Of a stretch of 64,000 nt of DNA, positions 17,784 to 32,056 are shown in pieces. Source of the DNA: a virus (lineage: Duplodnaviria; Caudoviricetes); the IMG/VR virus record IMGVR_UViG_2909979649_000004; one strand, 5' to 3'. The notes beneath the pieces were generated by a model, which was not told the origin of the DNA, did not search any database, and saw only the letters and a program-made list of their open reading frames with translations. The translations under genes and the position numbers were made by a program. How positions within the stretch are numbered: position 1 is the stretch's first letter; the number at the start of each line of letters is the position of its first letter.

Positions 17784-18408
17784 TATCCGCTTAGCCTTAA
17801 ATACCCCTGGTCGTGCCACCTTTGTGGTACGGCCTAAAGTCCCATTAACAGCAAAAACCGTAGTAAAAATAGCCATGGGTTATGGTGATAATTTACAGCA
17901 GGTATTTGTAGGCTATATCGAAAAAATCACCCCAGTGGATAAACACCAACAGCAATTATTCTGCAGGGAATTAACCGGGATTTTGCATTACCCGTTACCC
18001 ATGAGTTTACGGCATGTGCATTTAAATGAGGTATTAAACCAAATCGCCCAGCAAACCCGACTGACGTTTATTACTCCTGAACAAGCCTACTGCACTACTA
18101 AAATCCCTTATTTTTACAGCCTGAATAATGGGCTGTTTGCCATGAGTTCAATCGCGCAGGCATTTGCTATTGATGATTATTGTTGGCAGCAACAAGGGAA
18201 TGGACAGGTGTATGTGGGGAGTTGGCAGCACAGTTATTGGCAGGATAAACCGATAAAAATCCCTGAACAATTTTTTATTAACCATCAATCCCATAACAGT
18301 GCGCAAATTGCAGCAATACCCCAAATACGCCCTGGGGTGTTATTAGACGATGGCAGCCGGATAAAACAAACCCAAATTAATAACAATCAAATGGTCATAT
18401 CATGGTAG
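17725..18408 (+). CDS. HP1-type baseplate hub-like protein
   Basis: PGRATF, FCRE, WQQQGNGQVYVGSW motifs. Confidence 0.7.
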   Translation: MKLNSQLMINQQIIPLVRHDIRLALNTPGRATFVVRPKVPLTAKTVVKIAMGYGDNLQQVFVGYIEKITPVDKHQQQLFCRELTGILHYPLPMSLRHVHLNEVLNQIAQQTRLTFITPEQAYCTTKIPYFYSLNNGLFAMSSIAQAFAIDDYCWQQQGNGQVYVGSWQHSYWQDKPIKIPEQFFINHQSHNSAQIAAIPQIRPGVLLDDGSRIKQTQINNNQMVISW

Positions 18409-19352
18409 AAGCCATTAAACGCATTGTATTAAGTTTATTTCCAGAACTGGCGGGTAATTATCATTTACCCCGCTTTGGTCGGGTGGTGGCCATCAGTGAT
18501 TTACCCAAACAAGGGAGTCTCTGTGATGAGTTTAGGCCTCACTATGCGGTGGATATTGAGGTATTAAACGCACAAGGCAAGCCGGATAAAAAATTACCGA
18601 TATTATCGAGTGTAACCGTACCCATGGCACTAGCAGGCCAGGAAAAAGGCTTTTATGGCTTACCGGAAGTGGGTACTTGGGTGGTGGTCGGGTTTGCATA
18701 TGGTCTGCCTAATAAGCCATTCATACAACAGTTATTACCGAATGGCTTATCACTCCCCAACCTTGAGCAAAAAGAGCAGCGTTGGCAGCCTAATCCGTCA
18801 AGCTACCAACGTTGCGATCACAAGGGCGCCTGGGAACGAACCTCAGACAGTAGTATCAGGGATGAGAGCTTAAGTTATCAGCTGGAAACCCTACACCAGG
18901 AAACCACAGCCCAAACCAGCCAAACGACAGTTACCGAGCACAGCACTGAAACGATTGGCGGCACCAAAGCCATTGAGGCAATGGGAGCTCTTAAACTCCA
19001 TTCCGGTGGTACAGCTGAATTAGCCGCTATTGATAATTTAAAGGTAGCTACAGGCAATGATAGTCATACTGTCGTAGGTAACGATATGCAAGAGCATATC
19101 AACGGGATTAAACACAGCCTGGCCAAACTGAAGCAAATCGCCCAAGTCAAAGACGGAGGCAAAGTCTGGTTGGGGAATGAAAGTGACAATGTGTTGCAAC
19201 TGCTGTCGGAATTTATGGCGGTGGTTGAGCAAGCGTTTTTAGACTTATCCACCCATGGCCATACGCCTGCTGGACCAACTAATAAACATAGCCTGATACA
19301 GCAGGCGGGTACAGTTAATCAGCAGAATACTCATCTTAAAACAATGCTTTAA
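18402..19352 (+). CDS. Baseplate spike/gpV-like protein, last tail gene
   Basis: FRPHYAVD, PEVGTWVVVGFAYG OB-fold, beta repeats, HxH tip motif. Confidence 0.75.
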   Translation: MVEAIKRIVLSLFPELAGNYHLPRFGRVVAISDLPKQGSLCDEFRPHYAVDIEVLNAQGKPDKKLPILSSVTVPMALAGQEKGFYGLPEVGTWVVVGFAYGLPNKPFIQQLLPNGLSLPNLEQKEQRWQPNPSSYQRCDHKGAWERTSDSSIRDESLSYQLETLHQETTAQTSQTTVTEHSTETIGGTKAIEAMGALKLHSGGTAELAAIDNLKVATGNDSHTVVGNDMQEHINGIKHSLAKLKQIAQVKDGGKVWLGNESDNVLQLLSEFMAVVEQAFLDLSTHGHTPAGPTNKHSLIQQAGTVNQQNTHLKTML

Positions 19353-19365
19353 GAGAAATAATAAT

Positions 19366-19484
19366 CTAGTAGTCTAACAATAGAGTCTTTTCACCTTGAC
19401 TTATGCTGTATCTCTAAGAAAGAGCCTGTATATCAAAGCAGACAGGCATCACCTGTTGCCTTGAGTAGTGAAAGAAGCACTAGT
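19366..19484. repeat. Structured non-coding repeat, copy 1
   Basis: 111 bp match to 40446-40556 with 4 mismatches; bounded by CTAGT on both sides. Confidence 0.9.
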
Positions 19485-19582
19485 AATGAAAAATACAAAC
19501 GATAGGCATGTGACCTAGAACTTGCTACAGGAGCAAACTTTATCTGTAGCAAAGCCCTAGGAGACTGATTTGTAAAGGGTGT

Positions 19583-19619
19583 ACTGGTTAGCTTTTATAC
19601 AAAAAGTTAACCAGTTTTT
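19583..19619. terminator. Intrinsic terminator between the tail operon and the convergent ORF
   Basis: ACTGGTTAGCTTTT/AAAAGTTAACCAGT stem followed by T run. Confidence 0.6.
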
Positions 19620-19634
19620 AGAGTAATGAGCTGG

Positions 19635-20126
19635 TTAAATACCTGTTCTTACTTCTTTTGAAGAGCTTTCATTATTTGGTTCTATAAAATAGCGCTTAAC
19701 CTCATTCATTTTATCTACTAATGCCTGCTTTTTATTCATAGTTTCTCGATGATTAAACCTAATGCCTGTCTTACTGTTTACTCTATTAAGGTTTTGGGTA
19801 AACGATTCAATTGCATGGTTAAGCTTATAAATAGTTTTTTTATCAAGATAACTGAGATTGGATAAAGTGAAGTTAGCCTCAGATATAATCTCTGGCAACA
19901 TCTCTAGCAAATGGTATTCAGATGATCTGTGCTTAAGAGTCTGTCTTTCTTTAAGCCAAAGTTCCAATTCTTCGATTTCTTTTATAGTGAGCTTCGCGGC
20001 CACGTGAGGAGCGACCTGAGTTAAATGACTATCAAATGATGCCACTACTTTTTCACTCAATATATTATCTTTACTCACTTGCTCGCGAATGCATTGGACT
20101 CGTGAACCAATAATTTTAAAGTACAT
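19635..20126 (-). CDS. Hypothetical protein divergent from the Hsp20 cluster
   Basis: 163-aa ORF with AAGGAG ribosome-binding site; no recognised family. Confidence 0.7.
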   Translation of the reverse strand: MYFKIIGSRVQCIREQVSKDNILSEKVVASFDSHLTQVAPHVAAKLTIKEIEELELWLKERQTLKHRSSEYHLLEMLPEIISEANFTLSNLSYLDKKTIYKLNHAIESFTQNLNRVNSKTGIRFNHRETMNKKQALVDKMNEVKRYFIEPNNESSSKEVRTGI

Positions 20127-20436
20127 AATAATGCTCCTTTATTAATGAATAATTAAAAGGTAAATAAAAGTTTAATAAAAAAGCAGTTTTTTTGATTTAG
20201 GGATTGTAAATTTTCATATGATTAATAAGCCACTTACAATCAACAAAAACTAGCGCTGATTAGATATGGTTCTGTATATAATGTGTACAGGGTATTGGTA
20301 GTAATCAAAAACACCCTGCTGATGTAAATAATATTAATTTTGACTTAGGCTTTGTCAAGTCCTAAGTAAGCTGCAATTTTATAAATATAATTTATATGTA
20401 AAAAACTGCTTATTAAAATAAATTATTTATCTGGGT

Positions 20437-20467
20437 GTTGAACTCTTTAAAATAGAACCCATCATAT
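20437..20467 (+). promoter_or_regulatory. Putative sigma32 (RpoH) promoter
   Basis: GTTGAA-N15-CCCATCATAT, close to CTTGAA...CCCCATNT, upstream of an ibpA-like gene. Confidence 0.6.
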
Positions 20468-20519
20468 GTATTGAAAAAAGGAGTTACTTTTAAATCTACA
20501 ACTGTAAATTGACTGTATG

Positions 20520-20553
20520 ATCTCGTATTGCTTCTAATGGAGGATATGAAATG
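20520..20553 (+). promoter_or_regulatory. ROSE-like RNA thermometer hairpin
   Basis: TATTGCT (UUGCU motif at 20528-20532) pairs with SD AGGATA (20541-20546) leaving a bulged G. Confidence 0.65.
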
Positions 20554-21015
20554 ACTACACTAGATTTATCTCCCTTATATCGTAGCAGCATAGGGTTTGA
20601 TCAATTAGCATCAGTATTTGACACAGCTTTTCGCAGTGAGCAAACTGGTTACCCCCCTTATAATATCGAAACAATTGATGAAAACCACTATGGTATAACA
20701 CTAGCTGTAGCTGGCTTCGAAGAGCGTGAGTTAAGCATTCAGGTAGAGCAAGGAGTGCTCACTGTTAGTGGCAAAAAAAATAAAAATAATGAATCTAAAA
20801 AGTTCCTTTATCAAGGAATTGCTACTCGTTCATTTGAACGAAAATTTAATTTAGCTGACCATGTTGAAGTGACTGATGCCAGTCTAAGTAATGGGTTACT
20901 TAGCATTAGTTTGGTTAGAGAAGTGCCTGAGGCAATGAAACCAAAAACTATCCCTATTAGTCAGGGGAACCATAACGTTCTAGAGCATAAAAAAAAGGAG
21001 GGAAAAGTAGCCTAA
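20551..21015 (+). CDS. ibpA: Small heat-shock protein, IbpA-type
   Basis: DLSPLYRSSIGFD, GYPPYNIE, LAVAGF, YQGIATRSFERKF, NGLLSI. Confidence 0.95.
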   Translation: MTTLDLSPLYRSSIGFDQLASVFDTAFRSEQTGYPPYNIETIDENHYGITLAVAGFEERELSIQVEQGVLTVSGKKNKNNESKKFLYQGIATRSFERKFNLADHVEVTDASLSNGLLSISLVREVPEAMKPKTIPISQGNHNVLEHKKKEGKVA

Positions 21016-21083
21016 GTAAAAAGCCATAATAATCTTAAGCGTCTAGCGTCTTCTTTTAAGGAGGTAAAATATTAACACATAAA

Positions 21084-21107
21084 AGGTGGGTGATTACTCG
21101 CCCACCT
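21084..21107. terminator. Hairpin after ibpA
   Basis: AGGTGGGTGA/TCGCCCACCT inverted repeat. Confidence 0.45.
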
Positions 21108-21227
21108 AGCTATGATGGATAAGTGTAATGATTTCTCTTTAATAGTATTTCAAATCTTGCATTGTAAGCACTACTTAAAACTCATCATTAGTTTTTGAAT
21201 AATCGTGATTTTAAGGAGGTGATACTA

Positions 21228-21815
21228 GTGTTCGACTTAAAAAACTATAAATTCTTATACTTAATTATTAGTTTGTGCATCACTATCATTGGCGTATTAG
21301 CCTTTACTACATGGAGATTGTCCTCAGAGCTTAAAACTGTGGAAGGTAATACCCCTATAGCGTCAAGTGACATAATTAAACCGCTTCCAGCACCTTGGCC
21401 TAAAGATATAGATCCATGGTTAGATAGCTGGGACCCATCTGGTAATTTTTCAGCACTGCAAAAGCGTATGGATGAAATGATGCAAGTGATGTTACCAGAT
21501 ATGTCCTTCTTTAATATGCAGGGCTTTGGTTACTCTAGCTCTAATCCTAAGATCAGAATGGATGAAACAGATACTGAATATAGGGTCACTGTATCAGTTC
21601 CAGAAGCCCAGAATATTGAAGTTAACACAGAGCTAAAGAACAATATATTAACTATCAATGGTAAAGTAAAACAACAGGAAAGCAGTCAGCAAAGTAAGCT
21701 TTTTTATACAAGTCAGTTTTCTCAGTCTGTTACTTTACTTGAACCAGTAGATAGCACAAATATGAGGGTTGACAATAAAAATCATAAAGTGGTTATTACG
21801 ATTCAAAAAACATAA
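21228..21815 (+). CDS. Hsp20/alpha-crystallin protein with N-terminal membrane anchor
   Basis: GTG start after AAGGAGGT; hydrophobic FLYLIISLCITIIGVLAF; C-terminal ETDTEYRVTVSVP, ILTINGK, FSQSVTL. Confidence 0.8.
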   Translation: MFDLKNYKFLYLIISLCITIIGVLAFTTWRLSSELKTVEGNTPIASSDIIKPLPAPWPKDIDPWLDSWDPSGNFSALQKRMDEMMQVMLPDMSFFNMQGFGYSSSNPKIRMDETDTEYRVTVSVPEAQNIEVNTELKNNILTINGKVKQQESSQQSKLFYTSQFSQSVTLLEPVDSTNMRVDNKNHKVVITIQKT

Positions 21816-21955
21816 AACTATTTCAGCAAAATAAACTGTAAAAATATGACAGTTTTAAAGTATAAGTATTTACCTATAAGGAGGATAAAAAATCTGATAT
21901 TTAATAGTATGCCTTGGCTTTAATAGATTTAACAATTGTCAAAGGAGACCATGTC

Positions 21956-22501
21956 ATGAATGTAAAAGACTTAATCCCTTGGAACTGGCTAAAAAATGAA
22001 GAAGAGAGGGAAAATAAACAGTTAAAAGCAAGTAATATCTATGATCCAACGGCAAATCCATTGGTACAATTTCATAGAGAAGTTGACCGACTATTTGACA
22101 ACATGTTCAAAGGAGTTGGCTTTCCTGGCTTCTCAGAAGGATAGTCAAAGCTACCAAATAGTTTGTTTAAACCTAGCGTAGATATTAGCGCAAAGGATAT
22201 AGAATATCTAATTAGCGTGGAGGTACCTGGTGTTGAAGAAAAAGATATTAAACTTGAAATAAAGGATCATACACTCGTTATTAGTGGTGAAAAGAAACAA
22301 GAAAAGGAAGACAAAGAGGAGCATCATTACCGAGTTGAGCGCAGCTATGGCTGTTTTCAAAGGGTTTTAGCGATTCCAGAAGATGCAAGCACTGAAGAAA
22401 TTAATGCATCATTTAAGAATGGTGTTTTATCCATTACATTACCTAGAAGAGAATTACCAAATAGAAAGGCTAAACAAATAGAAATTAAGAAAGCTAGTTA
22501 A
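21956..22501 (+). pseudogene. Hsp20 gene interrupted by an in-frame TAG (22142-22144)
   Basis: Track ORFs 21914-22144 and 22163-22501 share a frame; LIPWNW...REVDRLFD and PSVDI...ERSYGCFQR...FKNGVLSI form one Hsp20. Confidence 0.85.
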
Positions 22502-22509
22502 AAGTATTT

Positions 22510-22561
22510 GGGTCATGCTTGTTGCAGTTCAATTGCATTCACTTGCAACAAGACACGACCC
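22510..22561. terminator. Long hairpin after the Hsp20 cluster
   Basis: GGGTCATGCTTGTTGCA/TGCAACAAGACACGACCC inverted repeat. Confidence 0.45.
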
Positions 22562-22861
22562 GATGTGTATTATTAACAGGCTTCCAAGGCCCTCTATGCT
22601 TGTCGTCAGTCCAAGCACAGCAGATAATGTATGTTATCAAGATGGGGCTTGTTCTCAGTATTGTCTTACAGTTTGTTATCTGTATTTAGTAACTCATTGC
22701 TTTTCTTTCTTTAATATTACCCCACTACTTCATTAACACCTACCTTTACTTATGTCAGATTATTTTCTTATTTGTGTCAGAGACTGGTTATCATCACTTC
22801 CATTCTGCAGGCGCCTGGGAGTGTGCCGGCAGAGCCACCAGAATCCAAAAGGCTGGAAAAA

Positions 22862-22930
22862 AGCACTCATCCTCCCCACCTGCGGGTTTTGCGTCATAAA
22901 AGTTTTGTGTAATTGAAGTTATGGCAATGC
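22862..22930. other. Probable cos (packaging) region of prophage 1
   Basis: GCACTCATCCTCCCCACCTGCGGG resembles the reverse complement of P2 cos (GTGCTTTCCCCGCCTCGCC); position after the tail genes is HP1-like. Confidence 0.55.
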
Positions 22931-23040
22931 TTAGTAGCTAAGCTTTATTGTATAAGGTCTTTAAGAGTTAATTGTTGTTTTCTCAAAATGAAAAATTATC
23001 TTAGTTTAAGCAAAAAAATACATTTTCAGTGCAAATTATT

Positions 23041-23155
23041 TATGTTAAGAAAACAAAAGTATTGTCGTATTCAATATAGGTAGCATTTTTAGTTTTAGGC
23101 TGTAGTGTCTAACCCTAATTTCTTTTCTTACTTTCTCAAGTAATGGACATGCCAT
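23041..23155 (-). pseudogene. intI: Integron integrase 5' fragment (frameshifted, truncated)
   Basis: GAGGTG SD; MACPLLEKVRKEIRVRHYSLK, then after frameshifts YLY*IRQYFCF, matching the IntI N-terminal RHYSxxTExAYxxWI pattern. Confidence 0.8.
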
Positions 23156-23199
23156 AATCACCTCTACATACATCACATAGCTATTAAGGTGAAATGATG

Positions 23200-23215
23200 C
23201 TGTATATAAATACAG
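23200..23215. promoter_or_regulatory. LexA (SOS) box upstream of the intI fragment
   Basis: CTGTATATAAATACAG fits CTGT-N8-ACAG; about 45 nt upstream of the intI ATG. Confidence 0.9.
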
Positions 23216-23269
23216 CGTTAATGGATGAACGTCAAAGTATTATTTGATTTACAAACAATTATATGTGAA

Positions 23270-23401
23270 TCAGTTAGTTGGGTGAGTCCTATCAACATTA
23301 TTCTAGTAATAAGTTTGTGCCTTGGTTAAAATATACTCGATTGTTATACGTCAATGCGACGTAGTACTTTGCGTCAGAGTGACGCTCATTAATAGTTAGT
23401 A
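23270..23401 (+). other. Candidate attI region
   Basis: Non-coding stretch between intI promoter and first cassette; candidate cores GTTATAC (23343) and GTTAGTA (23395). Confidence 0.45.
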
Positions 23402-23406
23402 CCACT

Positions 23407-23781
23407 ATGAGCGCAGAAAACGCATTAATAATATCTAGTGAGGAGATTTCAAAGGATTCCTATATCGAGTTCTTTGAGACTTTGGGTTGCCATTGATATT
23501 CTTGACACAAGGATGAAGCCATTGTTCTCGATGAGTACACACAAGTTGGTGTGTGCCTTATGGACTCAAGCTACATCGAGATGTTTGATGACGATGACTT
23601 AAAAAAACTACAGAATGCTTTGGGTGCTCCGCCTAAAACGTTCTTTGAAGTAAACCGTACAAAAGCAGACGACCCGAATGAGCTATATCTGGCTGTAGCC
23701 AAGAAGATGGCAAAGATGTGGCCTGTGGCTGTTCGGGATACACATGAAAAAATGGTGCCTTATAGTGAACTCATGTCGTAA
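23407..23781 (+). pseudogene. Integron cassette gene of unknown function with two in-frame TGA stops
   Basis: ATG 23407 is in frame with track ORF 23551-23781; TGA at 23494 and 23503; attC starts 6 nt after the stop. Confidence 0.7.
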
Positions 23782-23786
23782 ATTAA

Positions 23787-23847
23787 AGCTAACAAGCGCG
23801 TTAATTAGAGCGCTCGAAGGGTTGCGTCTATTACGCGGGCGTTATGT
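23787..23847 (+). other. attC site (59-base element), 61 nt
   Basis: AGCTAAC...GTTATGT cores; GCGT[T]AAT[T]AGA pairs with TCTATTACGC leaving two extrahelical bases; unpaired spacer AAGC/GGGC. Confidence 0.85.
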
Positions 23848-23903
23848 TTAGTTGAGCTTCATTGTTCTAAGTCCACTTCCTACAAAAAATCAGAGTATAA
23901 ATT

Positions 23904-24776
23904 ATGGACAATATTGTGCGAGAGGTCCTGAAAACAAAAATTATGGGGCTCAAAGCGACAGCCTTCCAAGATGCATTGGATAGAATTTATCTTAGCATTT
24001 ACGGTGAGGGAAACTTCCAGAGAGTAAAGCAGAAGCACGATGGTGGTTCGGATGGAATCATAAATGGTGAAACGGTTTTGGCAGTGTATGCTCCAGAAAA
24101 ATATATCTTGAATGATTTTAAGAGGAAGGTTAGAGCAGATTTTGAGTCTTACACGAAAAACTGGGAAGCTACACACAGCAAGTGGGAGGTTGTAACCAAT
24201 TTGGAATCGACCGCACAAATGATACAGTTTGTGAACATGCTTAAGAATGGTGCATCTCTTATATGTATTGATGGTTTGTTGCAGAAAATTGGTAAGCAGA
24301 CGTGGACGGTGAAAACGGCGATTTTTAGAGCGCTAGATATCCCTGACCATTACTTATCTAACGATGTGATCTCAACAGTAATTGAAGACTTAATTCAAAT
24401 AAGCACCCAAGATGATCCTTTTGAGCCCTATGAAAAACCAGCCTATATACAAGATAAAATCGAACTAAATGTTAGTGAGGAACACGTGGCTACGTTTATG
24501 GATGAGTATGAAGACTCGCTGGCCATTTTTCCTATAGTATCGACGGTCGTCAAGTCAAAATCGAACGCTGATGTTGCTGCTATAAGAAACAAAGTAAGGT
24601 CCACTTATACATCCTTGTCTGGGAAATTTGAAAAGCGGCTTGATGAGCTTGTAAAGATTATGTGTCAAAGTAAGTCAATAGATGATTACTATAGTCATAA
24701 TATGCGCATCGTAATGGTATATTTTTTTGAACAGTGTCTGTTTGGTAAAAAGCCAAAATCAGAGGTTAATAGATGA
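23904..24776 (+). CDS. lmuA: Lamassu/ABC-three-component effector: Mrr-like nuclease plus C-terminal domain
   Basis: AFQD...DGGSDG...AVYAP restriction-fold N-terminus; KIELN and YFFEQCLFG C-terminal motifs. Confidence 0.75.
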   Translation: MDNIVREVLKTKIMGLKATAFQDALDRIYLSIYGEGNFQRVKQKHDGGSDGIINGETVLAVYAPEKYILNDFKRKVRADFESYTKNWEATHSKWEVVTNLESTAQMIQFVNMLKNGASLICIDGLLQKIGKQTWTVKTAIFRALDIPDHYLSNDVISTVIEDLIQISTQDDPFEPYEKPAYIQDKIELNVSEEHVATFMDEYEDSLAIFPIVSTVVKSKSNADVAAIRNKVRSTYTSLSGKFEKRLDELVKIMCQSKSIDDYYSHNMRIVMVYFFEQCLFGKKPKSEVNR

Positions 24777-25006
24777 TTAATGCGCATGTCGAAATGGATT
24801 TAAATCAGCATGTTTCAGTTGTTTCCGCAAAAATTATTGATTTGGTTGAAGCTGGAAACGAAGTGATTTTAGAAACTTTAATGAGGAAGTTTCTAAAAAA
24901 ATATGAGTTCTATACCCCTGATCAGTTTATGGAAGGGCTGACCTTCTTGTTCTCTATAGATTGTTTGAATGTTCAGGACTACAGGGTGATATTAAAAAAT
25001 GTTTAA
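24773..25006 (+). CDS. lmuC: Lamassu small middle component
   Basis: 77 aa, overlaps both neighbours, LTFLFSID wHTH-like motif. Confidence 0.7.
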   Translation: MINAHVEMDLNQHVSVVSAKIIDLVEAGNEVILETLMRKFLKKYEFYTPDQFMEGLTFLFSIDCLNVQDYRVILKNV

Positions 25007-26759
25007 GCTCATTGCATTGTCTTCGCCATCAGGTCTTTTTAAAGATATTGTATTTAGGGATGGTCTGAACATAATTCTCGGAAGGTATTCAAGATCGGGA
25101 AAAGATATCAATGGAATTGGAAAAACTACAATAATTAACCTTATCGATTACTGTCTTTTAGCGGATGGTGTCAAGTCTGAGCTATTTAAAGAAAAGTATG
25201 ATTTTCTGAGGCATGAACGTATTCGGCTCGACTTCATGCTTGGTGGTAAGAAATATTCAATTGAACGAGGCTTTGAGGATAAGAAAAAGGTATTTTTCAC
25301 AACAAATGGAGAGGATGCTAAGGAGTTCATTGATAGTGATCTTAGATTGATACTAGGCTCAGAAATGGGGAAGGGGCAGGCTGGTATATATGAACCAATT
25401 TGGTTTAGGACGCTGATGTCGTTTTTTGTACAGAATGACCATAATTTTTTGCAAAGAGATGCAACGAATGTTCTGAAATTTACTATTGGTAAGCGCCAAC
25501 CTGAGCTTTTCACCTATATTTTTTTAATTTTAGGCATTGATAATAGTCTTATATGGGATTTTGACAATAGCAGTGTTGAATTGAAGAGATTGCGAGCAGA
25601 TCAAACGCGCATTAATAAACAAATAGTAGAGCAAACAGGAAAATCAATAGAGGACTTTAGAGGCGAGTGTGACTCTGTTGCAAGGAAAATTGATAAGCTA
25701 GAAGAGGGATTGGATAACTATCAATTCGATGATAATAGCGCCGCCCTCGAAGATAAGCTGCAAGCACTCAGTGAACAAATATCAGGTTTAAATAAAAAGT
25801 ATATATATCTAGTAAGCAAGCACAGAGATATTCAAGAGAGCCTCCAGATTGATGTCGATGTAGACCCTGATGAGGTTTCTGGATTTTACTCGGAAATTCA
25901 TTCTGAGTTTTCTAGCTTTATAAGAAAGAGTCTCAATGAAGTTATTGAGTTTAGGAAGGAAATAGCTACAAATAGACGAAAATTTCTTAAGGAACGCGAG
26001 GCTCAATACCAAGGGCAATTGAGCGAGATAAAGAATAAACTAATTTCACTTGAAGCAGAGCGATCTAGGATTTTTAAAATGCTAGATGAAAAATCCGCAT
26101 TTGATGCACTAAAGTCTGCTTATACTAATCTAATCGAGGAGAAAGCTCACCTTTCTAGTCAGTTTTCTTATATTGAGCAATTGGATCATATAGAAGAATC
26201 AATTGCCAGCAAGAAATCATTGGTTAGCTCTACAGTTGCAAAACTTGTGGCGAAGAAGAATGAAAACATACAAACGGTAGATGAAATAAAAAGTATATTT
26301 CTAGATTTGGTAGAAGGTTCGGTAGATATTGATAGTTCAGATGTAAGTCCGTATTTCAATATTGAATTCAAATCAATTCAAAACAGTCCAATCAAGCTAT
26401 CGCTAGAAGTACCTAGAGGTAGTTCTTTAGGTAAGGGGCGATTCAAAATATTAGCTTTTGATCTCACTGTATTTATCACTTCTGTTTTAAGAAAGACCGA
26501 ATTCCCAAGCTTTTTAATTCATGATGGTGTTTTCCATGCGATAGCACACAAAACACGAATTAAATTTCTTAATTACATCAACAGTAAACTCGGTGAATTG
26601 GGTGGCGCTCAATATATTATTACTGTAAACGAGGATGAAATCATATTTCCTGAAAGTGAAGGCGTTTCAATAGATTTGGACTTTAAATTGGAAGATAAAA
26701 CATTAATAACTCTTGAAGACAATCCTGATCATATGTTTTTAGGCAAAGAGTTTGGATGA
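24999..26759 (+). CDS. lmuB: Lamassu SMC-like ABC ATPase (DUF2326-type)
   Basis: GLNIILG, NGIGKTT Walker A, coiled coil, AFD, FLIHDG Walker B, QYIIT. Confidence 0.85.
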   Translation: MFKLIALSSPSGLFKDIVFRDGLNIILGRYSRSGKDINGIGKTTIINLIDYCLLADGVKSELFKEKYDFLRHERIRLDFMLGGKKYSIERGFEDKKKVFFTTNGEDAKEFIDSDLRLILGSEMGKGQAGIYEPIWFRTLMSFFVQNDHNFLQRDATNVLKFTIGKRQPELFTYIFLILGIDNSLIWDFDNSSVELKRLRADQTRINKQIVEQTGKSIEDFRGECDSVARKIDKLEEGLDNYQFDDNSAALEDKLQALSEQISGLNKKYIYLVSKHRDIQESLQIDVDVDPDEVSGFYSEIHSEFSSFIRKSLNEVIEFRKEIATNRRKFLKEREAQYQGQLSEIKNKLISLEAERSRIFKMLDEKSAFDALKSAYTNLIEEKAHLSSQFSYIEQLDHIEESIASKKSLVSSTVAKLVAKKNENIQTVDEIKSIFLDLVEGSVDIDSSDVSPYFNIEFKSIQNSPIKLSLEVPRGSSLGKGRFKILAFDLTVFITSVLRKTEFPSFLIHDGVFHAIAHKTRIKFLNYINSKLGELGGAQYIITVNEDEIIFPESEGVSIDLDFKLEDKTLITLEDNPDHMFLGKEFG

Positions 26760-26781
26760 AATTGAGGCGACAACTATTCTG

Positions 26782-26842
26782 ACATAAGGGGCTGGCATTT
26801 CTTACCTCAAAGCAATTCAATCGCATTCTTTAGTTGTTAGGT
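26782..26842 (+). other. Degenerate attC closing the Lamassu cassette
   Basis: ACATAAG is a 6/7 inverse of the cassette-opening GTTATGT; the 61-nt span ends in GTTAGGT; internal pairing is poor. Confidence 0.45.
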
Positions 26843-26935
26843 AAACCTGTTCAAGACTTTCTCTATCAAGCAATTTGTGTGATTGGTTGCTGGTAGAGTG
26901 ATTCCTATCAACACACATTATATAGAGAAGCATTC

Positions 26936-27211
26936 ATGAAAATGTACGTTGGCAACCTGTCATATAATGTCACAGCTGAAGATTTAAAAGAAACCTTTTC
27001 CACTTATGGTGCCGTAGCAGATGTAACGCTGATTACTGACCGGGATTCTGGTCAGTCTAAAGGCTTTGGCTTTGTTGAAATGGAGAATAACTCTGAAGCG
27101 GATGCGGCGATCAAAGGACTAAATGGTAGTAACCTACAAGGTCGAGATATGAAAGTGAATCAAGCTCAGCCAAAATCTAACAGTCGTCCACAACGTAGAC
27201 CAAGGTATTAA
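26936..27211 (+). CDS. RRM RNA-binding protein, copy 1
   Basis: RNP2 MYVGNL and RNP1 KGFGFVEM. Confidence 0.95.
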   Translation: MKMYVGNLSYNVTAEDLKETFSTYGAVADVTLITDRDSGQSKGFGFVEMENNSEADAAIKGLNGSNLQGRDMKVNQAQPKSNSRPQRRPRY

Positions 27212-27333
27212 TAACGAATTTAGCTTCAAGCACTGAAGGTATTAAGTGGTGTAACTTTTGCCTTTAGTGATTAACCAAATTGTCACGAAGTTTTCATACT
27301 GACGAGCAAATCTTTTCCTTTGATTTGGGTTTT

Positions 27334-27421
27334 GAGTGCGAAACGAGTGCGAAAATTGTCCCCAATTACACACAAAACCTCACCCTGTAAGGTTTTCAGG
27401 TAATGTTATAAGTAATTGATT
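27334..27421. promoter_or_regulatory. Phage att arm: integrase arm-type repeats and IHF site
   Basis: GAGTGCGAAA twice (27334, 27345); TAAGTAATTGATT at 27409-27421 is the reverse of WATCAANNNNTTR. Confidence 0.6.
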
Positions 27422-27457
27422 TTAAAGGGATTTTAGGAAATTTAAGGTGAGTGGAAT

Positions 27458-27483
27458 TGGTGGAGGCGGCGGGAATTGAACCC
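27458..27483 (-). other. att core: 3'-terminal 26 nt of a tmRNA (or tRNA-Ala-like) gene
   Basis: Reverse complement GGGTTCAATTCCCGCCGCCTCCACCA gives T loop, acceptor strand and CCA; the rest of the gene is absent. Confidence 0.85.
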
Positions 27484-27730
27484 TGTAGCAATAAAAGCTT
27501 AAACATTTATTCTTAAAGGTTATTTATGACTAAGCTGTAACGTTGGGGTGAATAATGGGGACGGTGATTCCTCCTACTTTACACATTTAGACCTGCCTAG
27601 AGTATTGATTTCATTTAAATTTTTAGCAGGTTCAAACTATTCTAATCAGTGTAAAAGATGAATCAACATCTGACCAATTTGGTGAGATAAAAAGTGCTTC
27701 CTCACCAAATTAAATTTAAAGCTCTAAGTA

Positions 27731-28006
27731 CTAATACCTAGGTCTACGCTGTGGGCGGCTGTTAGATTTTGGTTGAGCCTGATTCACTTTCATATCCCGG
27801 CCTTGCAAGTTACTACCATTCAGGCCTTTGATTGCGGCGTCCGCTTCCGAGTTATTCTCCATTTCCACAAAGCCAAAGCCTTTAGACTGGCCAGAATCCC
27901 GGTCAGTAATCAGCGTTACATCTGCTACGGTACCATAAACTGAAAAGGTTTCTTTTAAATCTTCGGCTGTGACATTGTATGACAGGTTGCCAACGTACAT
28001 TTTCAT
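27731..28006 (-). CDS. RRM RNA-binding protein, copy 2
   Basis: 89/91 aa identical to copy 1; inverted orientation. Confidence 0.95.
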   Translation of the reverse strand: MKMYVGNLSYNVTAEDLKETFSVYGTVADVTLITDRDSGQSKGFGFVEMENNSEADAAIKGLNGSNLQGRDMKVNQAQPKSNSRPQRRPRY

Positions 28007-28412
28007 GAATGCTTCTCTATATAATGTGTGTTGATAGGAATCACTCTACCAGCAGCCAACCACACAAACTGCTTGATAGAGAACAAGGATTGACAGGTTC
28101 ATGGAAACAGCAAAGATTTACAGTTCTGAAATTTCAGGAAAGAGAAAGTAGCGGATAGGTTCGCTAAGCTTCTATCAAGCCAGGACTTACTAATGAACTT
28201 AGTCAAAGCCCGATGCTATCATGGTTTTATAGCAATATCTCTTGAAATCTGTGTTGGTAGATAAAATATGCCTGATAAAGCTGTATAGAAATAAACGACG
28301 ACCAACTTTTGCGTTACGTGTTGATTAAAATTTAAACAGTTGTTAGTATCTTGCTCCAGCTTACTAAGCACGATAGTTCTTTAATCTGGCTAGTTATAAC
28401 CTGGAGTTCTTT

Positions 28413-28907
28413 ATGAGTGTTGACCAAAGCCCGTATGCAGTTCCTAATGCTAATCTAGTAGCTGATTCCTCGAAAGATAATGGTATTTCTCAGTTACCCC
28501 GTTTTAGTGCATGGGGAGTATTTTTTTTAACACTAATTACACTTGGAATTTATTACTATATCTGGATGTATAAAAGGACAAAGGTAATCAATACTGTTTG
28601 TAATAAAAAAATTCCAACTGGGTTAACAAATACAGCTATTTCGCTATATATAATAAATTTTCTGATGAATATTTATATAGGTGCTGTCGGAGAAGGAGTT
28701 GACAGCTCGGTAATCATGGTAGAAAACATAATTAGTATAGTCGCAGTAATTCTTTCAATTATTTGGCTGTATACAATTAGAAATAGATTGCATGTTATTG
28801 AGAATGTATCTAAAGACAGCAAGTTTTGGATAGGCGGTATATTAACCTTTTTCTTCTCCACTATTTATCTACAGTACAAGATTAACCAAATGATTGATGA
28901 AAAATAG
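28413..28907 (+). CDS. Membrane protein, DUF4234-like
   Basis: SPYAVP, LITLGIYYYIW, YLQYKIN; four hydrophobic segments. Confidence 0.75.
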   Translation: MSVDQSPYAVPNANLVADSSKDNGISQLPRFSAWGVFFLTLITLGIYYYIWMYKRTKVINTVCNKKIPTGLTNTAISLYIINFLMNIYIGAVGEGVDSSVIMVENIISIVAVILSIIWLYTIRNRLHVIENVSKDSKFWIGGILTFFFSTIYLQYKINQMIDEK

Positions 28908-28926
28908 TCTTAAAAATAGCTTCTTA

Positions 28927-28952
28927 ACCCAGCTAATTTTAGCTGGGTTTTA
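28927..28952 (+). terminator. Intrinsic terminator
   Basis: AACCCAGCTA/TAGCTGGGTT followed by T run. Confidence 0.7.
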
Positions 28953-28986
28953 TCTTTTGGTATTAGACAAGTTAATAAACGAGCAA

Positions 28987-29166
28987 CTAAAATAATTTTG
29001 CCGAAACATCTGCGAACCCTTGTTTTAACCTTTCCCCGCTTTGCTCAATAAACGCACCATAATGTCTGTTAAGCATCTCGATTCCTTTATGGCCTAATTG
29101 ACCTGCAAGCCAGAATAGGTTTTCATTTTGAGCAATCATCAGACAGGCAAAGCTGTGTCTAGCTTG
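28987..29166 (-). pseudogene. Orphan alternative 3' end of the integrase (60 codons)
   Basis: QARHSFACLMIAQ...LGHKG...RHYGAFIEQSGERLKQGFADVSAKLF*; 29030-29167 matches 30852-30989 at 129/138 nt. Confidence 0.9.
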
Positions 29167-29333
29167 GAAAAAAATTCGTTTAGATTTTATATCTAGAATA
29201 CCCAGTCAACTATATACTATAACAGTACGCTTTTATATAAAAAAGAGTTATATTTTAATATCTTTATAAGACATTATACATATGTCAGTATTGTAATCTT
29301 ATCATGGATTGATTAGATAAAAGGGAATTTTAT

Positions 29334-30392
29334 ATGTTAAATTGGCAATATCTAAAATTCAAAGATATTAATTTAGAGGATAGTTTTTTTGATTCTTTGA
29401 AAGAAGATTACAGCGAGTTTTCTGACTGGTTTGAGCGAAAATGTGAAAATAACGCTTATGTTTTTAAAAACGATAATAATGAAATTGATGGGTTTCTTTA
29501 TCATAAAATAGAGGAGGAGGCTGTTACAGATATAAGCCCTCCTTTGCCCCCTAAAAAAAGACTTAAAATCGGCACCTTTAAAGTTAATGCTCATGGTACG
29601 AGACTAGGCGAACGCTTTATAAAAAAATCGTTAGACTTTGCTCTGCTCGAAGGGGTTAGTGAAGTTTATGTAACTATTTTCCCTAAACACGAAGCTTTAA
29701 TTGATTCTTTTAAGAGATATGGTTTTCGAGAGGTTGCTGATAAAACGACTACTAATGGCGTCGAACTGGTTTTATTGAAACAAATGGGAGTGTATATAGG
29801 TGAAGTAAAGTCTGATTATCCTTATATAGATAACACTGGCAGGAAGTTTATTTTATCTTTGTACCCTGAATGGCATAGTAGGTTATTACCTGATTCAATA
29901 TTAAACACTGAAAGTAAAGATGCAGTTGTAAAAGATATATCACATACAAACAGTATTCATAAAGTTTACTTGACTGCTATGTCGGGTGTTGAAAGTTTGT
30001 GTAAAGGCGATATATTAGTAATTTATAGAACTTCTGATAAAAAAGGTCCTGCACACTATAGATCGGTTGCAACATCTATCTGTGTAGTTGAAGAAACTAA
30101 GGATATTAGTTGCTTTTCAACTTTAGATGAGTTTATTGGTTATACAGCGTCATATAGTATATTTAAAAAGAGAGAGTTAGAAGCGTTCTATTCAGAAAAG
30201 AAATACCCTACTATTATCAAGTTTTGCTATAATGTTGCATTAAGTAAAAGAGTTACTCGAGGTGAGATGATAGATGATTTGGGTATGAGTGCTAACCAAT
30301 ACTGGGGTTTCTTCGAGTTAACAGAAAGTCAGTTTGAAGGTATTATTAAAAAAGGCAAAGTAAATGAAAGTCTTATTATCAATAAAGCCTGA
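29334..30392 (+). CDS. GNAT acetyltransferase fused to a PUA/EVE-like domain
   Basis: LKIGTFKVNAHGTRLGERF acetyl-CoA loop, YGF motif; KVY...GDILVIYRT C-terminal domain. Confidence 0.8.
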   Translation: MLNWQYLKFKDINLEDSFFDSLKEDYSEFSDWFERKCENNAYVFKNDNNEIDGFLYHKIEEEAVTDISPPLPPKKRLKIGTFKVNAHGTRLGERFIKKSLDFALLEGVSEVYVTIFPKHEALIDSFKRYGFREVADKTTTNGVELVLLKQMGVYIGEVKSDYPYIDNTGRKFILSLYPEWHSRLLPDSILNTESKDAVVKDISHTNSIHKVYLTAMSGVESLCKGDILVIYRTSDKKGPAHYRSVATSICVVEETKDISCFSTLDEFIGYTASYSIFKKRELEAFYSEKKYPTIIKFCYNVALSKRVTRGEMIDDLGMSANQYWGFFELTESQFEGIIKKGKVNESLIINKA

Positions 30393-30738
30393 ATATGCAG
30401 AAAAAATACTTTCTGGAATTAAAAAGTATGAATTTAGAAAGTCTATATTTAAAGACCAAAGGGTTACAACAGTAGTTATATATGCAACAAAACCAGTTGG
30501 GAAAATTATTGGCGAGTTTGAAATAGATGATATATTACAAGATAAACCGACTTTAATATGGAGGAAAACTAAGAGGTATTCAGGTATAAGTAAGGAGTTT
30601 TTTGAGAAGTATTTTAATGGAAGAAATAAGGCTTTTGCTATAAAAGTTAAAAATCCATCAGCTTATAATGTACCTTATGAACTAACGAAGCTGATTCCGC
30701 ACGGTGTTCCACCGCAATCATTTTGCTATCTTCGCTAA
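30364..30738 (+). CDS. ASCH domain protein
   Basis: LLSIKPEYAEKILSGIKKYEFRK (GxKxxExR), PPQSFCY. Confidence 0.9.
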   Translation: MKVLLSIKPEYAEKILSGIKKYEFRKSIFKDQRVTTVVIYATKPVGKIIGEFEIDDILQDKPTLIWRKTKRYSGISKEFFEKYFNGRNKAFAIKVKNPSAYNVPYELTKLIPHGVPPQSFCYLR

Positions 30739-30802
30739 AAATTTTATTTGTATCATGCTATTACTAATAGTATCTGCATGATACATGCTCTAAAAAGTCC
30801 AC

Positions 30803-32056
30803 TTAGAAAATTTTTTTTGCAACATTAGAATAGTTTTGTTTTGGTTGATATCTTTCCCCGCTTTGCTCAATAAATGCACCATAATGTCTGTTAAGCATCT
30901 CGATTCCTTTATGGCCTAATTGACCTGCAAGCCAGAACAGGTTTTCATTTTGAGCAATCATAAGACAAGCGAAGCTATGCCTTGTTTGGTATGGGTTTCT
31001 ATATCGTATCCCTGACCTCTTGATTGCTGGCATCCAGCCAGTCATTCTTAGCTGTTTATCGTTTGTCCATGGCTTATTTTGGGTAGGGTGGTGGAATACA
31101 TAGGCATCTTGGTTAAGCGTATAGTTAGCTTGATCTTCCAAGGCTTTGACCACAGGCTCTAACATGATCACCTTGCGGATACCTTTCTTGCCAGTTTTGG
31201 TGCCTTTCATAACACCATCAACTTTAGCCTGGTCTACCAAGATATAGCCTTCTCTGAAGTTTATCTTTTCCCAAGTAAGCCCAATCAATTCGCTCGTGCG
31301 CATGCCAGTAAAAAAGGCTGTTGTAAAAATGTTTCGAACCTGGCCATCCATATGAGATAAGATTTGTTCAATTTCCTGTATATTGAAAGGGTCGCATTCA
31401 TACTCACTTTCTTTGGCTTCCTTGACAATCTCCTGGTCAATATCAATGTCATCAAGAGGGCTGCGCAGTATGACTTTATCTGCTACAGCTTGCTTTAGTA
31501 TCTGCTTAAGGGGGATTAGGTTGTTAACAATAGTTTTGCGCTTACACGACAAGCTTTTGTTATACATCCACTCCCGTATGTGTTTTGGCTTTAGCTCCTG
31601 AACGGGAGTATCACGGAAGTAGGGCATCAGTTGACCCGTAATAGCTTTTTTGTAATTTCTGGCTGTACTTCTTTCCTTAAGCTTGTCAACTTTTTGCAAG
31701 TACTCTTCCAGCAAGTCTCCTACAGTAACACTGTCATGGTATGTTTCACCGAACAGGGTGCATCGCTTTGATTCAGGAAAGTGGTTGGAGTACTTAAATG
31801 TTCGACGCTGAATTTCGTATATGATTGACCCACGTTTACTGTCGGCATAAACAATGTCTTTCTTGATATCATTGGTAAAGTGCTTCTTGTGGGTAGGTGT
31901 TTCTAACTTAGGTATTTTTCTGCATGTAATCGTTTCGCGGCATTTGACTCCTTTGTAAGAAAAGTAAATTCTGCAGCTCACGGTAGACTTAAGTACTCGA
32001 AGCTCCAGGCCAGCAGGAACTTCGATATTTTTAATGATTTCGTCAATTTCACTCAT
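30803..32056 (-). CDS. int: Tyrosine integrase with arm-binding domain
   Basis: TGMRTSELIGL, YQTRHSFA, LGH, HY catalytic motifs. Confidence 0.95.
   Translation of the reverse strand: MSEIDEIIKNIEVPAGLELRVLKSTVSCRIYFSYKGVKCRETITCRKIPKLETPTHKKHFTNDIKKDIVYADSKRGSIIYEIQRRTFKYSNHFPESKRCTLFGETYHDSVTVGDLLEEYLQKVDKLKERSTARNYKKAITGQLMPYFRDTPVQELKPKHIREWMYNKSLSCKRKTIVNNLIPLKQILKQAVADKVILRSPLDDIDIDQEIVKEAKESEYECDPFNIQEIEQILSHMDGQVRNIFTTAFFTGMRTSELIGLTWEKINFREGYILVDQAKVDGVMKGTKTGKKGIRKVIMLEPVVKALEDQANYTLNQDAYVFHHPTQNKPWTNDKQLRMTGWMPAIKRSGIRYRNPYQTRHSFACLMIAQNENLFWLAGQLGHKGIEMLNRHYGAFIEQSGERYQPKQNYSNVAKKIF

What the first reader, a model, noticed from the sequence alone, without database searches (positions are those of the whole stretch)
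23841..26842. Whole three-gene Lamassu operon packaged as one 3-kb cassette with a decayed attC
Seen: three overlapping intact genes (nuclease-like effector, 77-aa middle component, SMC-like ATPase). The inverse core ACATAAG lies 22 nt after the last stop, and GTTAGGT closes a 61-nt span, the same length as the upstream attC, but the stem is poor. Known: Lamassu/DdmABC systems defend against phages and plasmids. Inference: loss of attC locked the defence operon into the phage. How the prophage avoids triggering it on induction is open.
Basis: partly seen in the sequence, partly recalled or inferred. Interest (0 to 1): 0.7.

Follow-up and report, generated by a model that had tools for sequence, protein, structure and literature searches.

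The report
Three-gene Lamassu cassette stranded in prophage
A complete three-gene Lamassu-type anti-phage system that circulates in marine bacteria as one 3-kb integron gene cassette sits here in a dead integron stub (no integrase, last recombination site cut off) carried at the tail end of a resident prophage, showing that multi-gene defence systems can travel as integron cassettes and end up as fixed phage cargo.

Summary
In detail: three overlapping intact genes (290, 77 and 586 aa) and both motifs lie at the stated coordinates. The main reading also holds. The proteins are a PD-(D/E)xK-fold effector with an ABC-3C CTD10-like tail, a small middle protein of no known family, and a short SMC/Rad50-like ATPase whose nearest solved folds include LmuB. 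In six metagenome contigs the same operon is one ~3.0-kb cassette with attC sites, and similarity to the window starts at the G|TT of the preceding attC.

One claim is wrong. The 61-nt "decayed attC" (26782-26842) is not an attC. From 26791 on it is the native upstream region of an RNA-binding-protein gene, also present in relatives that lack the operon. The attC was cut away, leaving at most ACATAA of its first box.

New here: the operon is the second cassette of a fossil integron. This comprises about 40 codons of intI, an attI homologous to that of a complete integron in a family relative, a pseudogene cassette with an attC, then Lamassu. The genome holds no integron integrase. The array lies between the last baseplate gene and the ssrA repeat that bounds a 36.8-kb prophage unit, and the second prophage carries an attI plus two cassettes at its tail end too. 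Other stretches of this scan have shown similar cases.

The parts
18402..19352 (+). Last baseplate gene of prophage 1 (context). The cargo region begins after it.
   Evidence: phrog_4011 baseplate protein, 1e-99. An 81% identical homologue ends 95 nt from a complete intI in family relative G005.
23039..23155 (-). Remnant of the integron integrase gene (delta-intI): start codon plus about 40 codons, with a frameshift and a stop.
   Evidence: Aligns to the first 118 nt of a true intI (TIGR02249, 481 bits) of G005 within a 398-column alignment, E 1e-27. Translation.
23282..23399 (+). attI-type site with its upstream intergenic region. It ends ..CATTAATAGTTAG, with the crossover GTT at 23395-23397.
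   Evidence: Homologous to the intI-attI intergenic region of G005. There are 11 copies in the own genome, all ending at the same base. The copies examined (two in L029, one near 84 kb and one near 4.61 Mb of C1, and one after prophage 2) are followed by cassette-like ORFs and/or attC-like sites.
23396..23841 (+). Cassette 1: an orphan gene (23407-23784) with two in-frame stops, plus its attC (23787-23847; first box AGCTAAC, last box GTTATGT).
   Evidence: Translation. The bottom strand forms an imperfect hairpin with 19 symmetric pairs, -9.2 kcal/mol. No homologues in 5.8 billion proteins.
23842..26790 (+). Lamassu cassette, truncated at its 3' end.
   Evidence: DNA similarity to 11 loci starts at 23838-23904 and ends at 26738-26767. 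In six of them the unit ends with, or lies between, canonical attC sites.
23904..24776 (+). LmuA-like effector: N-terminal PD-(D/E)xK-fold nuclease domain (residues 1 to about 145) and a helical C-terminal CTD10-like domain.
   Evidence: AF2 model, pLDDT 87.9. VIA Z 9.9 to AF1548, 9.4 to R.BspD6I, 9.2 to the FokI cleavage domain and Can2, 7.5 to Avs4. Pfam CTD10 at 21.3 bits, below the 28.1 cut-off. Invariant D46, D50, E65, K75.
24773..25006 (+). 77-aa middle component, in the position of LmuC.
   Evidence: Conserved (55-91% identity) and always lies between the other two genes. No Pfam, PADLOC or NCBIfam match.
24999..26759 (+). LmuB-like short SMC/Rad50-type ABC ATPase (DUF2326).
   Evidence: PADLOC PDC-M68B 5e-57 and LmuB 8e-13. 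Pfam DUF2326 and AAA_23. Foldseek: YydD model 2e-24, then five Lamassu LmuB structures at 1e-12 to 8e-9 (ranks 2-11), interleaved from rank 6 with one Smc head and one Rad50. Walker A NGIGKT and Walker B FLIHDG are conserved.
26782..26788 (+). ACATAAG: probable remnant of the first box (ACATAAC) of the lost attC. The breakpoint is at 26788-26790.
   Evidence: Relatives have ACATAAC 30-31 nt after the stop. Similarity to them is lost after 26767, and native sequence starts at 26791.
26791..26935 (+). Native upstream region of the RRM RNA-binding-protein gene (26936-27211).
   Evidence: 87% identical to own-genome copy L029 4478-4601 and matched in G002. Those copies read GTTCCAT where the window reads GTTAGGT.
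27458..27480 (-). Copy of the 3' end of ssrA (tmRNA): the att-type repeat that closes the 36.8-kb prophage 1 unit.
   Evidence: The tmRNA gene lies at window 70706-71076. The core is repeated at window 70728, 27480, -9335, -60313 and -81859. A 23-nt exact repeat sits within a roughly 300-nt imperfect repeat flanking the unit.

Best explanation
The three genes form a short Lamassu (ABC-3C) anti-phage system. It was packaged as a single ~3.0-kb integron gene cassette that circulates among marine Gammaproteobacteria.

In this genome the operon is the second cassette of a fossil integron with this order: an intI stub, an attI, cassette 1 (a pseudogene with an intact-looking attC), then the Lamassu cassette. 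The cassette's own attC was cut off by a rearrangement that joined the first box (ACATAA) to the upstream region of a host RRM gene. The genome holds no integron integrase. The operon is therefore fixed in place for two separate reasons.

The array lies in the cargo region between the last baseplate gene and the ssrA-derived end repeat of a complete-looking temperate myovirus prophage. It is most likely phage cargo.

The inferred mode of action comes from solved Lamassu complexes. A dimer of the SMC-like ATPase, together with the 77-aa protein, holds the effector inactive through its C-terminal domain. Sensing of foreign DNA ends or phage replication releases the effector. Its PD-(D/E)xK nuclease domain then oligomerises and degrades DNA, aborting the infection.

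Shown here: gene integrity and purifying selection, the folds, cassette status in relatives, the junctions, absence of the integrase, and the att-bounded position. Inferred only: defence activity, the sensing and activation mechanism, expression, and packaging into virions.
For: Lamassu identity. The ATPase scores PADLOC PDC-M68B 5e-57 and LmuB 8e-13 over its full length. Pfam finds DUF2326 and AAA_23. The AF2 model (pLDDT 86.3) matches the YydD model at 2e-24, then five LmuB cryo-EM structures at 1e-12 to 8e-9 (ranks 2-11). From rank 6 these are interleaved with one Smc head (8e-11) and one Rad50 (5e-10), and they lie ahead of the bulk of SMC and Rad50 entries. The effector's N-domain has a PD-(D/E)xK fold at Z 9.2-9.9, plus a CTD10-like tail.

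Cassette status. DNA similarity to 11 loci begins at 23838-23840 in the three loci whose similarity reaches the core GTT, and ends at 26738-26767. L010, L011 and L012-L015 carry canonical attC sites, and sequences diverge right after the GTT. L015 shows four consecutive ORF+attC units. In the ATPase tree the window is sister to attC-flanked L010+L011 (support 100/99), and the non-cassette copies branch outside.

Fossil integron. The window's 23039-23399 aligns to intI 5' end + attI of a complete integron in G005. No IntI is found in the own genome or in two genomes of the same genus.

Truncation. Native sequence begins at 26791.

Prophage position. ssrA core repeats lie at window -9335 and 27480. 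The unit holds an integrase, a CI-like repressor, O/P-like replication genes, and head, tail and baseplate modules. The same baseplate gene abuts intI in G005. Prophage 2 also has an attI plus two attC cassettes after its last tail gene.

Selection. dN/dS is 0.10-0.22.
Against: No PADLOC, Pfam or NCBIfam model recognises the 77-aa protein, and no PADLOC model recognises the effector. Its CTD10 hit is below Pfam's cut-off. A profile of the ATPase family does not reach LmuB by sequence in the PDB. Walker B reads hhhhDG rather than the hhhhD[Q/S/T/E] reported for short Lamassu (PMC12663957).

Taken alone, the upstream attC is not statistically better than shuffled sequence (z -1.1), and hundreds of equally good hairpins exist genome-wide. 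Its status therefore rests on the comparative evidence.

The ssrA region is a heavily rearranged tandem array with five core copies. An internal att could have been lost, in which case the island would be a separate remnant. The unit is 36.8 kb, somewhat large for a P2-type head. Nothing here shows expression or defence activity.
Confidence: 0.75

Rival explanations
1. One reading: the cassette's own attC is still in place at 26782-26842 and has decayed through point mutations.
For: ACATAAG and GTTAGGT span 61 nt, the length of the upstream attC. A global alignment of the 3' flank to the L010 attC scores 20, against 12.2 +/- 4.2 for shuffles; 13 of 300 shuffles reach that score.
Against: 26791-26913 is 87% identical to the RRM-gene upstream region elsewhere in the genome. 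It is also matched in a same-genus genome without the operon, where the homology continues further left. Those copies read GTTCCAT at the supposed core. The span has no stem. With dS of about 0.3 between the window and L010, a retained attC should still be about 75% alignable, yet similarity stops 8 nt after the stop codon.
Confidence: 0.04
2. The array is not phage cargo. It is a remnant of a chromosomal integron, or of a separate island, trapped between tandemly integrated elements at ssrA. The repeated link to tail-gene ends reflects segmental duplication of junction regions.
For: There are five ssrA core copies and many integrase and baseplate-gene fragments in 150 kb. The RRM gene next to the core looks like host DNA and occurs next to an unrelated integrase in G002. 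In G005 only the last two baseplate genes remain next to the integron. Two IMG/VR contigs with IntI relatives were not clearly phage.
Against: The island lies inside a unit bounded by direct repeats, with a full lysogeny, replication and virion gene set. The tail-gene-end / (delta)intI / attI order recurs in diverged copies (73-85% DNA identity), across two genera, and behind two different prophages with unrelated last tail genes.
Confidence: 0.25
3. The operon is an ABC-3C module with a role other than phage defence, such as plasmid exclusion, addiction or DNA repair, or it is no longer active.
For: The family is annotated only as hypothetical. PADLOC files its ATPase under an untested candidate, PDC-M68. 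The brc128AB Lamassu-like cassette and DdmABC differ in anti-plasmid activity.
Against: All three genes are under purifying selection. Folds and gene order match solved Lamassu complexes. The neighbourhood holds other defence candidates: PDC-M11 at 29334-30738, and a dCTP deaminase at the equivalent site in G002.
Confidence: 0.1

Closest known systems
Short Lamassu / DdmABC (LmuA-LmuC-LmuB; Vibrio cholerae and Salmonella complexes, PMC12663957, PDB 9hqx/9hqu/9nyg)
   Same: The gene order is effector, small protein, SMC-like ATPase. The ATPase is about 600 aa with a short coiled coil and no CxxC hook. The effector has an N-terminal nuclease domain plus a C-terminal docking domain. LmuB structures are the nearest experimentally solved folds, ranks 2-5.
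   Different: Sequence similarity to defined LmuB models is weak (8e-13). The best PADLOC model is the candidate PDC-M68B. The effector is a PD-(D/E)xK/Mrr-like fold rather than Cap4. Walker B reads hhhhDG. The 77-aa protein matches no LmuC model.
ABC-three-component (ABC-3C) systems, DUF2326 clade, including B. subtilis YydD (PDB 9a6c integrative model)
   Same: The ATPase has DUF2326 (1e-20) and its best fold match is YydD (2e-24, TM 0.59). The effector tail resembles CTD10. Distant plasmid homologues are annotated as ABC-3C ATPase plus middle component.
   Different: The CTD10 score is below Pfam's cut-off, and the middle component matches none of the Pfam MC families.
Defence systems in integron cassettes: BRiCs such as brc128AB (Kieffer et al., bioRxiv 10.1101/2024.07.02.601719) and SCI defence cassettes (Darracq et al., bioRxiv 10.1101/2024.07.02.601686)
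   Same: A defence system carried as one cassette bounded by attC sites. brc128AB is a Lamassu type 1-like cassette.
   Different: This cassette has three genes in about 3.0 kb. Darracq et al. report that systems in cassettes never exceed two components. Here the cassette is stranded without an attC or an integrase.
CALIN / In0-type degenerate integrons
   Same: An attI and cassettes without a working integrase.
   Different: A stub of intI and the attI are retained. The platform is multi-copy (11 attI copies) and sits at prophage tail ends.
Defence cargo hotspots of P2-like prophages (from memory: Rousset et al. 2022)
   Same: Variable anti-phage cargo at a fixed position of a temperate myovirus. 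The equivalent site in G002 holds a dCTP deaminase gene.
   Different: The position is after the last tail gene, next to attR, and the cargo is organised as integron cassettes behind an attI.

Membership tests
Lamassu (short type) | SMC/Rad50-like ABC ATPase of about 600 aa with a coiled-coil insertion and a Walker A motif | tested here: met
   586 aa. NGIGKT is invariant in the family. The model has a long antiparallel coiled coil. Foldseek matches LmuB structures at 1e-12, and PADLOC LmuB scores 8e-13.
Lamassu (short type) | Walker B hhhhD[Q/S/T/E] (PMC12663957) | tested here: inconclusive
   FLIHDG: the Asp is invariant, but it is followed by Gly in this clade.
Lamassu (short type) | LmuA: an N-terminal effector domain plus a C-terminal domain that docks on LmuB | tested here: inconclusive
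   The PD-(D/E)xK fold is clear (Z 9.2-9.9). The C-terminal helical domain gives only a sub-threshold CTD10 hit (21.3 against 28.1 bits). LmuA structures appear only as weak Foldseek rows. Docking could not be tested.
Lamassu (short type) | A small LmuC encoded with LmuA and LmuB | tested here: inconclusive
   A conserved 77-aa gene always lies between the other two, but it matches no family.
Lamassu (short type) | Protection against phages or plasmids | not testable with these tools
   Needs cloning and plaque or plasmid-stability assays.
Integron gene cassette | The 5' boundary lies at G|TT of the preceding attC or attI | tested here: met
   Similarity to L009, L010 and L011 starts at 23838-23840, on the GTTATGT of five different upstream attC sites.
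Integron gene cassette | Its own attC (RYYYAAC ... GTTRRRY imperfect palindrome) at the 3' end | tested here: not met
   This feature is met in relatives L010-L015. In the window only ACATAA remains, and native sequence follows from 26791.
Integron | An attI next to an intI gene | tested here: inconclusive
   The attI and intergenic region are homologous to those of a complete integron in G005 (E 1e-27), but intI is reduced to about 40 codons with a frameshift.
Integron | An integron integrase (TIGR02249 over its cut-off) in the genome | tested here: not met
   The best hit in the own genome is 75.6 bits, against a cut-off of 265. No hit appears in the two same-genus genomes either, and one of three genomes of the sister genus has it at 481 bits.
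Prophage cargo | Lies between the att repeats of a prophage that has a full gene set | tested here: met
   ssrA core repeats lie at window -9335 and 27480. Integrase, repressor, replication, head, tail and baseplate genes are present. Packaging was not tested.

The most novel reading that the evidence does not exclude
Temperate myoviruses of this bacterial family carry an integron platform directly behind their last tail gene: intI plus attI in one relative, and attI alone here. They use it to draw defence cassettes, including a complete three-gene Lamassu system, from the marine cassette pool. Phages would then be both vehicles and users of integron cassettes. Loss of the integrase freezes whichever cassettes were on board.
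Probability: 0.45. Interest if true: 0.75.

Novelty: new variant of a known kind. Interest (0 to 1): 0.6.

Why it matters
Published surveys describe defence systems in integron cassettes as streamlined, with at most two components. This operon is a three-component, 3-kb SMC-type system that moves as one cassette, seen in at least six independent metagenome contigs. The size limit is therefore softer than reported.

The locus also preserves a stepwise path from a mobile cassette to fixed cargo. The integrase was lost, the attC was cut off, and the whole array sits at the tail end of a prophage. Both prophages in the window, and a relative with an intact integrase, show the same layout: tail gene, then attI, then cassettes. 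This suggests that phages tap the integron cassette pool for anti-phage genes. That idea can be tested with simple induction and recombination assays.

Tried and rejected
1. RNAalifold on a MAFFT alignment of 12 attC sites gave no structure because the variable centres misalign. I did not build a covariance model.
2. My own attC scans were too noisy to stand alone. They use AAC..GTT pairs, a constrained fold and a count of symmetric pairs. They recover the true sites in the metagenome loci but also give hundreds of genome-wide false positives. A strict version finds none in 19-31 kb.
3. Rfam found only a 13-nt tmRNA fragment in 19-31 kb.
4. The promoter and terminator scan gave fewer promoter-like sites than shuffles.
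5. A sequence profile of the ATPase family against the PDB reached only Rad50 N-termini and coiled coils.
7. No RNA holder was listed among the sequencing runs, and only small-share DNA holders appeared. I did not lay reads.
8. IMG/VR and INPHARED hold no close relative of the ATPase.
9. Two IMG/VR contigs encode IntI relatives, but one looks like a multi-integrase island and the other may include host flank.
10. I considered that integrase cleavage at AA|C of the first box made the right junction. The base after ACATAA is G, not the expected C, so I dropped the idea.
11. I considered that the repeat ending at 23399 was an attC or an IS end. Its fold shows three small hairpins rather than a long palindrome, and its homology to the G005 intI-attI region settled it as attI.
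Full report
**1. The observation**

The region holds three co-oriented, overlapping ORFs: 23904-24776 (290 aa), 24773-25006 (77 aa) and 24999-26759 (586 aa). The stop codon is at 26757-26759. ACATAAG is at 26782-26788 and GTTAGGT at 26836-26842, a span of 61 nt. The site between the preceding ORF and the operon (23787-23847, AGCTAAC ... GTTATGT) is also 61 nt.

The upstream site folds on its bottom strand into one imperfect hairpin with three bulged bases (-9.3 kcal/mol, 19 symmetric pairs). The downstream span does not fold (-1.9/-3.7 kcal/mol, z above 0, no symmetric pairs).

**2. What the genes are**

*ATPase.* It scores PADLOC PDC-M68B 5e-57 and LmuB 8e-13 over its full length. Pfam finds DUF2326 (1e-20) and AAA_23.
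- Its family has 1233 representative clusters.
- The family conserves Walker A NGIGK[ST] and a Walker B FLIHDG, and has no CxxC hook.
- An AF2 model (pLDDT 86.3) shows an ABC head split by a long coiled coil.
- The best fold match is the B. subtilis YydD model (2e-24). Next come five Lamassu LmuB cryo-EM structures (1e-12 to 8e-9, ranks 2-11). From rank 6 they are interleaved with one Smc head and one Rad50, and they lie ahead of most SMC and Rad50 entries.

*Effector.* Its family has 89 proteins, all annotated hypothetical.
- The AF2 model has pLDDT 87.9.
- Residues 1 to about 145 have a PD-(D/E)xK nuclease fold: Z 9.9 to AF1548, 9.4 to R.BspD6I, 9.2 to the FokI cleavage domain and Can2, 7.5 to the Avs4 nuclease.
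- D46, D50, E65 and K75 are invariant.
- The helical C-terminal half gives a sub-threshold Pfam CTD10 hit. CTD10 is the docking domain of ABC-3C effectors.

*Middle protein.* The 77-aa protein is conserved and always lies between the other two genes, but it matches no family.

Gene order, sizes and folds fit the short Lamassu type described in PMC12663957. dN/dS against the nearest relatives is 0.10-0.22 for all three genes.

**3. The operon is an integron cassette**

Scans of genome and metagenome collections returned 11 loci with the operon, at 66-92% ATPase identity. Look-ups by protein added a Vibrio sp. and a Shewanella algae contig.

DNA similarity to the window starts at 23838-23840 in the three loci whose similarity extends that far. 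That is on the GTTATGT core. It ends between 26738 and 26767.

Printing the flanks gave the following picture:
- L010, L011, L014 and L015 have a different canonical attC upstream of the shared GTTATGT.
- L010/L011 have a 72-nt attC downstream, and L012-L015 an 89-90-nt attC. Each begins ACATAAC 30-31 nt after the stop and ends GTTAG or GTTAT. After that the contigs diverge from each other.
- L015 is an array of at least four ORF+attC units.
- The Vibrio contig is a typical array of small co-oriented genes, and its copies of the attC boxes are mutated.
- Methylophaga (L009), S. algae and the three most distant loci (L016-L018) lack a 3' attC.

In an ATPase tree the window is sister to the attC-flanked L010+L011 (support 100/99). 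It sits inside a 10-member clade (99/98) that holds every attC-bearing copy, and L016-L018 branch outside. Loss of the attC here is therefore secondary.

**4. The "decayed attC" is not an attC**

A search of relatives with 19300-31000 found no match to 23400-26790. Matches stop at 23398-23399 and resume at 26791.

From 26791 the window is 87% identical to a second copy of the RRM-gene upstream region in the same genome (L029 4478-4601). It also matches a same-genus genome (G002), where the homology continues further left into unrelated sequence.

With dS of about 0.3 to L010, an attC that had merely drifted would still align. Instead similarity ends 8 nt after the stop codon. A global alignment of the flank to the L010 attC is only marginally above shuffles, with 13 of 300 reaching the score.

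The attC was therefore removed, with a breakpoint at 26788-26790. ACATAA, at the expected distance from the stop, is probably the remnant of its first box.

**5. The cassette sits in a fossil integron**

The sequence ending at 23399 (..CATTAATAGTTAG) has 11 copies in the genome, all ending at the same base. The copies I examined are followed by different cassette-like ORFs and/or attC-like sites.

The own genome and two same-genus genomes have no integron integrase. One genome of the sister genus (G005) has one at 481 bits. The window's 23039-23399 aligns (E 1e-27) to the first 118 nt of that intI, the intergenic region and the attI.

In the window only about 40 intI codons remain, with a frameshift and a stop. 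The same truncated layout is shared with the diverged copy L029 and with G001, yet their cassettes differ.

The array has this order:
- delta-intI (23039-23155, minus strand);
- attI (to 23399, crossover GTT at 23395-23397);
- cassette 1 (23396-23841), an orphan gene with two in-frame stops and an attC;
- the Lamassu cassette (23842 to about 26790).

**6. The array lies inside a prophage unit**

The tmRNA gene is at window 70706-71076. Its 3' core recurs at window 27480, -9335, -60313 and -81859.

The 36.8-kb unit between -9335 and 27480 is flanked by a roughly 300-nt imperfect direct repeat. It holds:
- an integrase, a CI-like repressor and O/P-like replication genes;
- portal and terminase, scaffold, major head, sheath, tape measure, baseplate and fibre genes.

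The island 19353-27457 contains an unknown ORF, three Hsp20 genes, the fossil integron and the RRM gene. It lies between the last baseplate gene and the closing repeat.

Three further observations tie the platform to phage ends:
- In G005 an 81% identical baseplate gene ends 95 nt from the complete intI.
- In the own genome, baseplate-gene fragments precede other attI copies.
- Prophage 2 has the true P2 order of tape measure, U and D. It carries an attI-like site at window 64113-64172, about 110 nt after its D-like gene, followed by two cassettes with canonical attC sites.

I rate phage carriage at about two in three. The alternative is a chromosomal remnant trapped in this very rearranged tandem array.

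**7. How it most likely works**

By analogy with the solved complexes (PMC12663957), an ATPase dimer with the small protein sequesters a monomeric effector through its C-terminal domain. DNA ends or phage replication intermediates trigger its release. The nuclease then oligomerises and degrades DNA, which aborts the infection. None of this was tested here.

**8. Comparison with what is known, and novelty**

Defence systems in integron cassettes are published, including a two-gene Lamassu type 1-like cassette, brc128AB. The RefSeq survey states that such systems never exceed two components. This cassette has three components in about 3.0 kb. Class 1 integrons inside prophage regions have also been reported.

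Earlier notes of this scan report cassette arrays in other prophages and a two-gene Lamassu cassette in Pseudoalteromonas. I did not check those. The same scan also flagged this stretch independently as an integron platform in a prophage, which agrees with my result.

I class the finding as a new variant of a known kind, with interest 0.6.

Noticed in passing
window 64113-64172 and beyond (L040 1113-3000; just past the window end): Prophage 2 has an attI-like site about 110 nt after its gpD-like last tail gene. Two cassettes follow, with canonical attC sites at L040 1988-2082 and 2941-2997. No intI remnant was seen there.
   Followed up: partly
window 29334-30738: A gene pair next to the prophage 2 integrase matches the PADLOC candidate defence system PDC-M11, with A at 3e-143 and B at 4e-51. 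The second gene has an ASCH domain.
   Followed up: partly
window 27458-27480; own genome C1 1254389-1407324: Five copies of the ssrA 3' core lie within 150 kb, marking a tandem array of integrated elements. The array contains many integrase and baseplate-gene fragments.
   Followed up: partly
window 26936-27211 (+) and 27731-28006 (-): An RRM-type RNA-binding-protein gene (NF058537 Rbp_regulator) is duplicated as an inverted pair on either side of the ssrA core copy. The two copies are 98% identical in protein, and their upstream regions are shared.
   Followed up: partly
window 20551-22501: Three Hsp20 small heat-shock genes lie in a row in the low-GC cargo region after the baseplate gene. 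The third may be split (21914-22144 and 22163-22501).
   Followed up: no
window 22677-23039: A conserved non-coding stretch lies left of the intI stub. It is shared with L029 and G001. One 26-nt motif from it also occurs 2 kb after the baseplate gene of a third prophage at C1 967793. No Rfam match.
   Followed up: no
window 28987-29139 (-): A remnant of the C-terminus of a phage integrase, about 80% identical to the prophage 2 integrase. It marks a decayed earlier insertion.
   Followed up: no
L027 8440-9978 (G002, same genus): Immediately left of the RRM upstream region, where the window has the Lamassu cassette, G002 carries a dCTP deaminase defence gene (PADLOC 5e-168). This junction appears to be a defence hotspot.
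   Followed up: partly
own genome C1 84011-83925, 2681639-2684530, 4604356-4609993: Further small groups of attC-like sites, two of them beside attI copies. They look like other integrase-less cassette stubs scattered in the genome.
   Followed up: no
window 19366-19476: The 111 nt right after the last baseplate gene are 98% identical to a distant place in the genome, C1 1777003-1777113 on the minus strand. I have no explanation for this.
   Followed up: no
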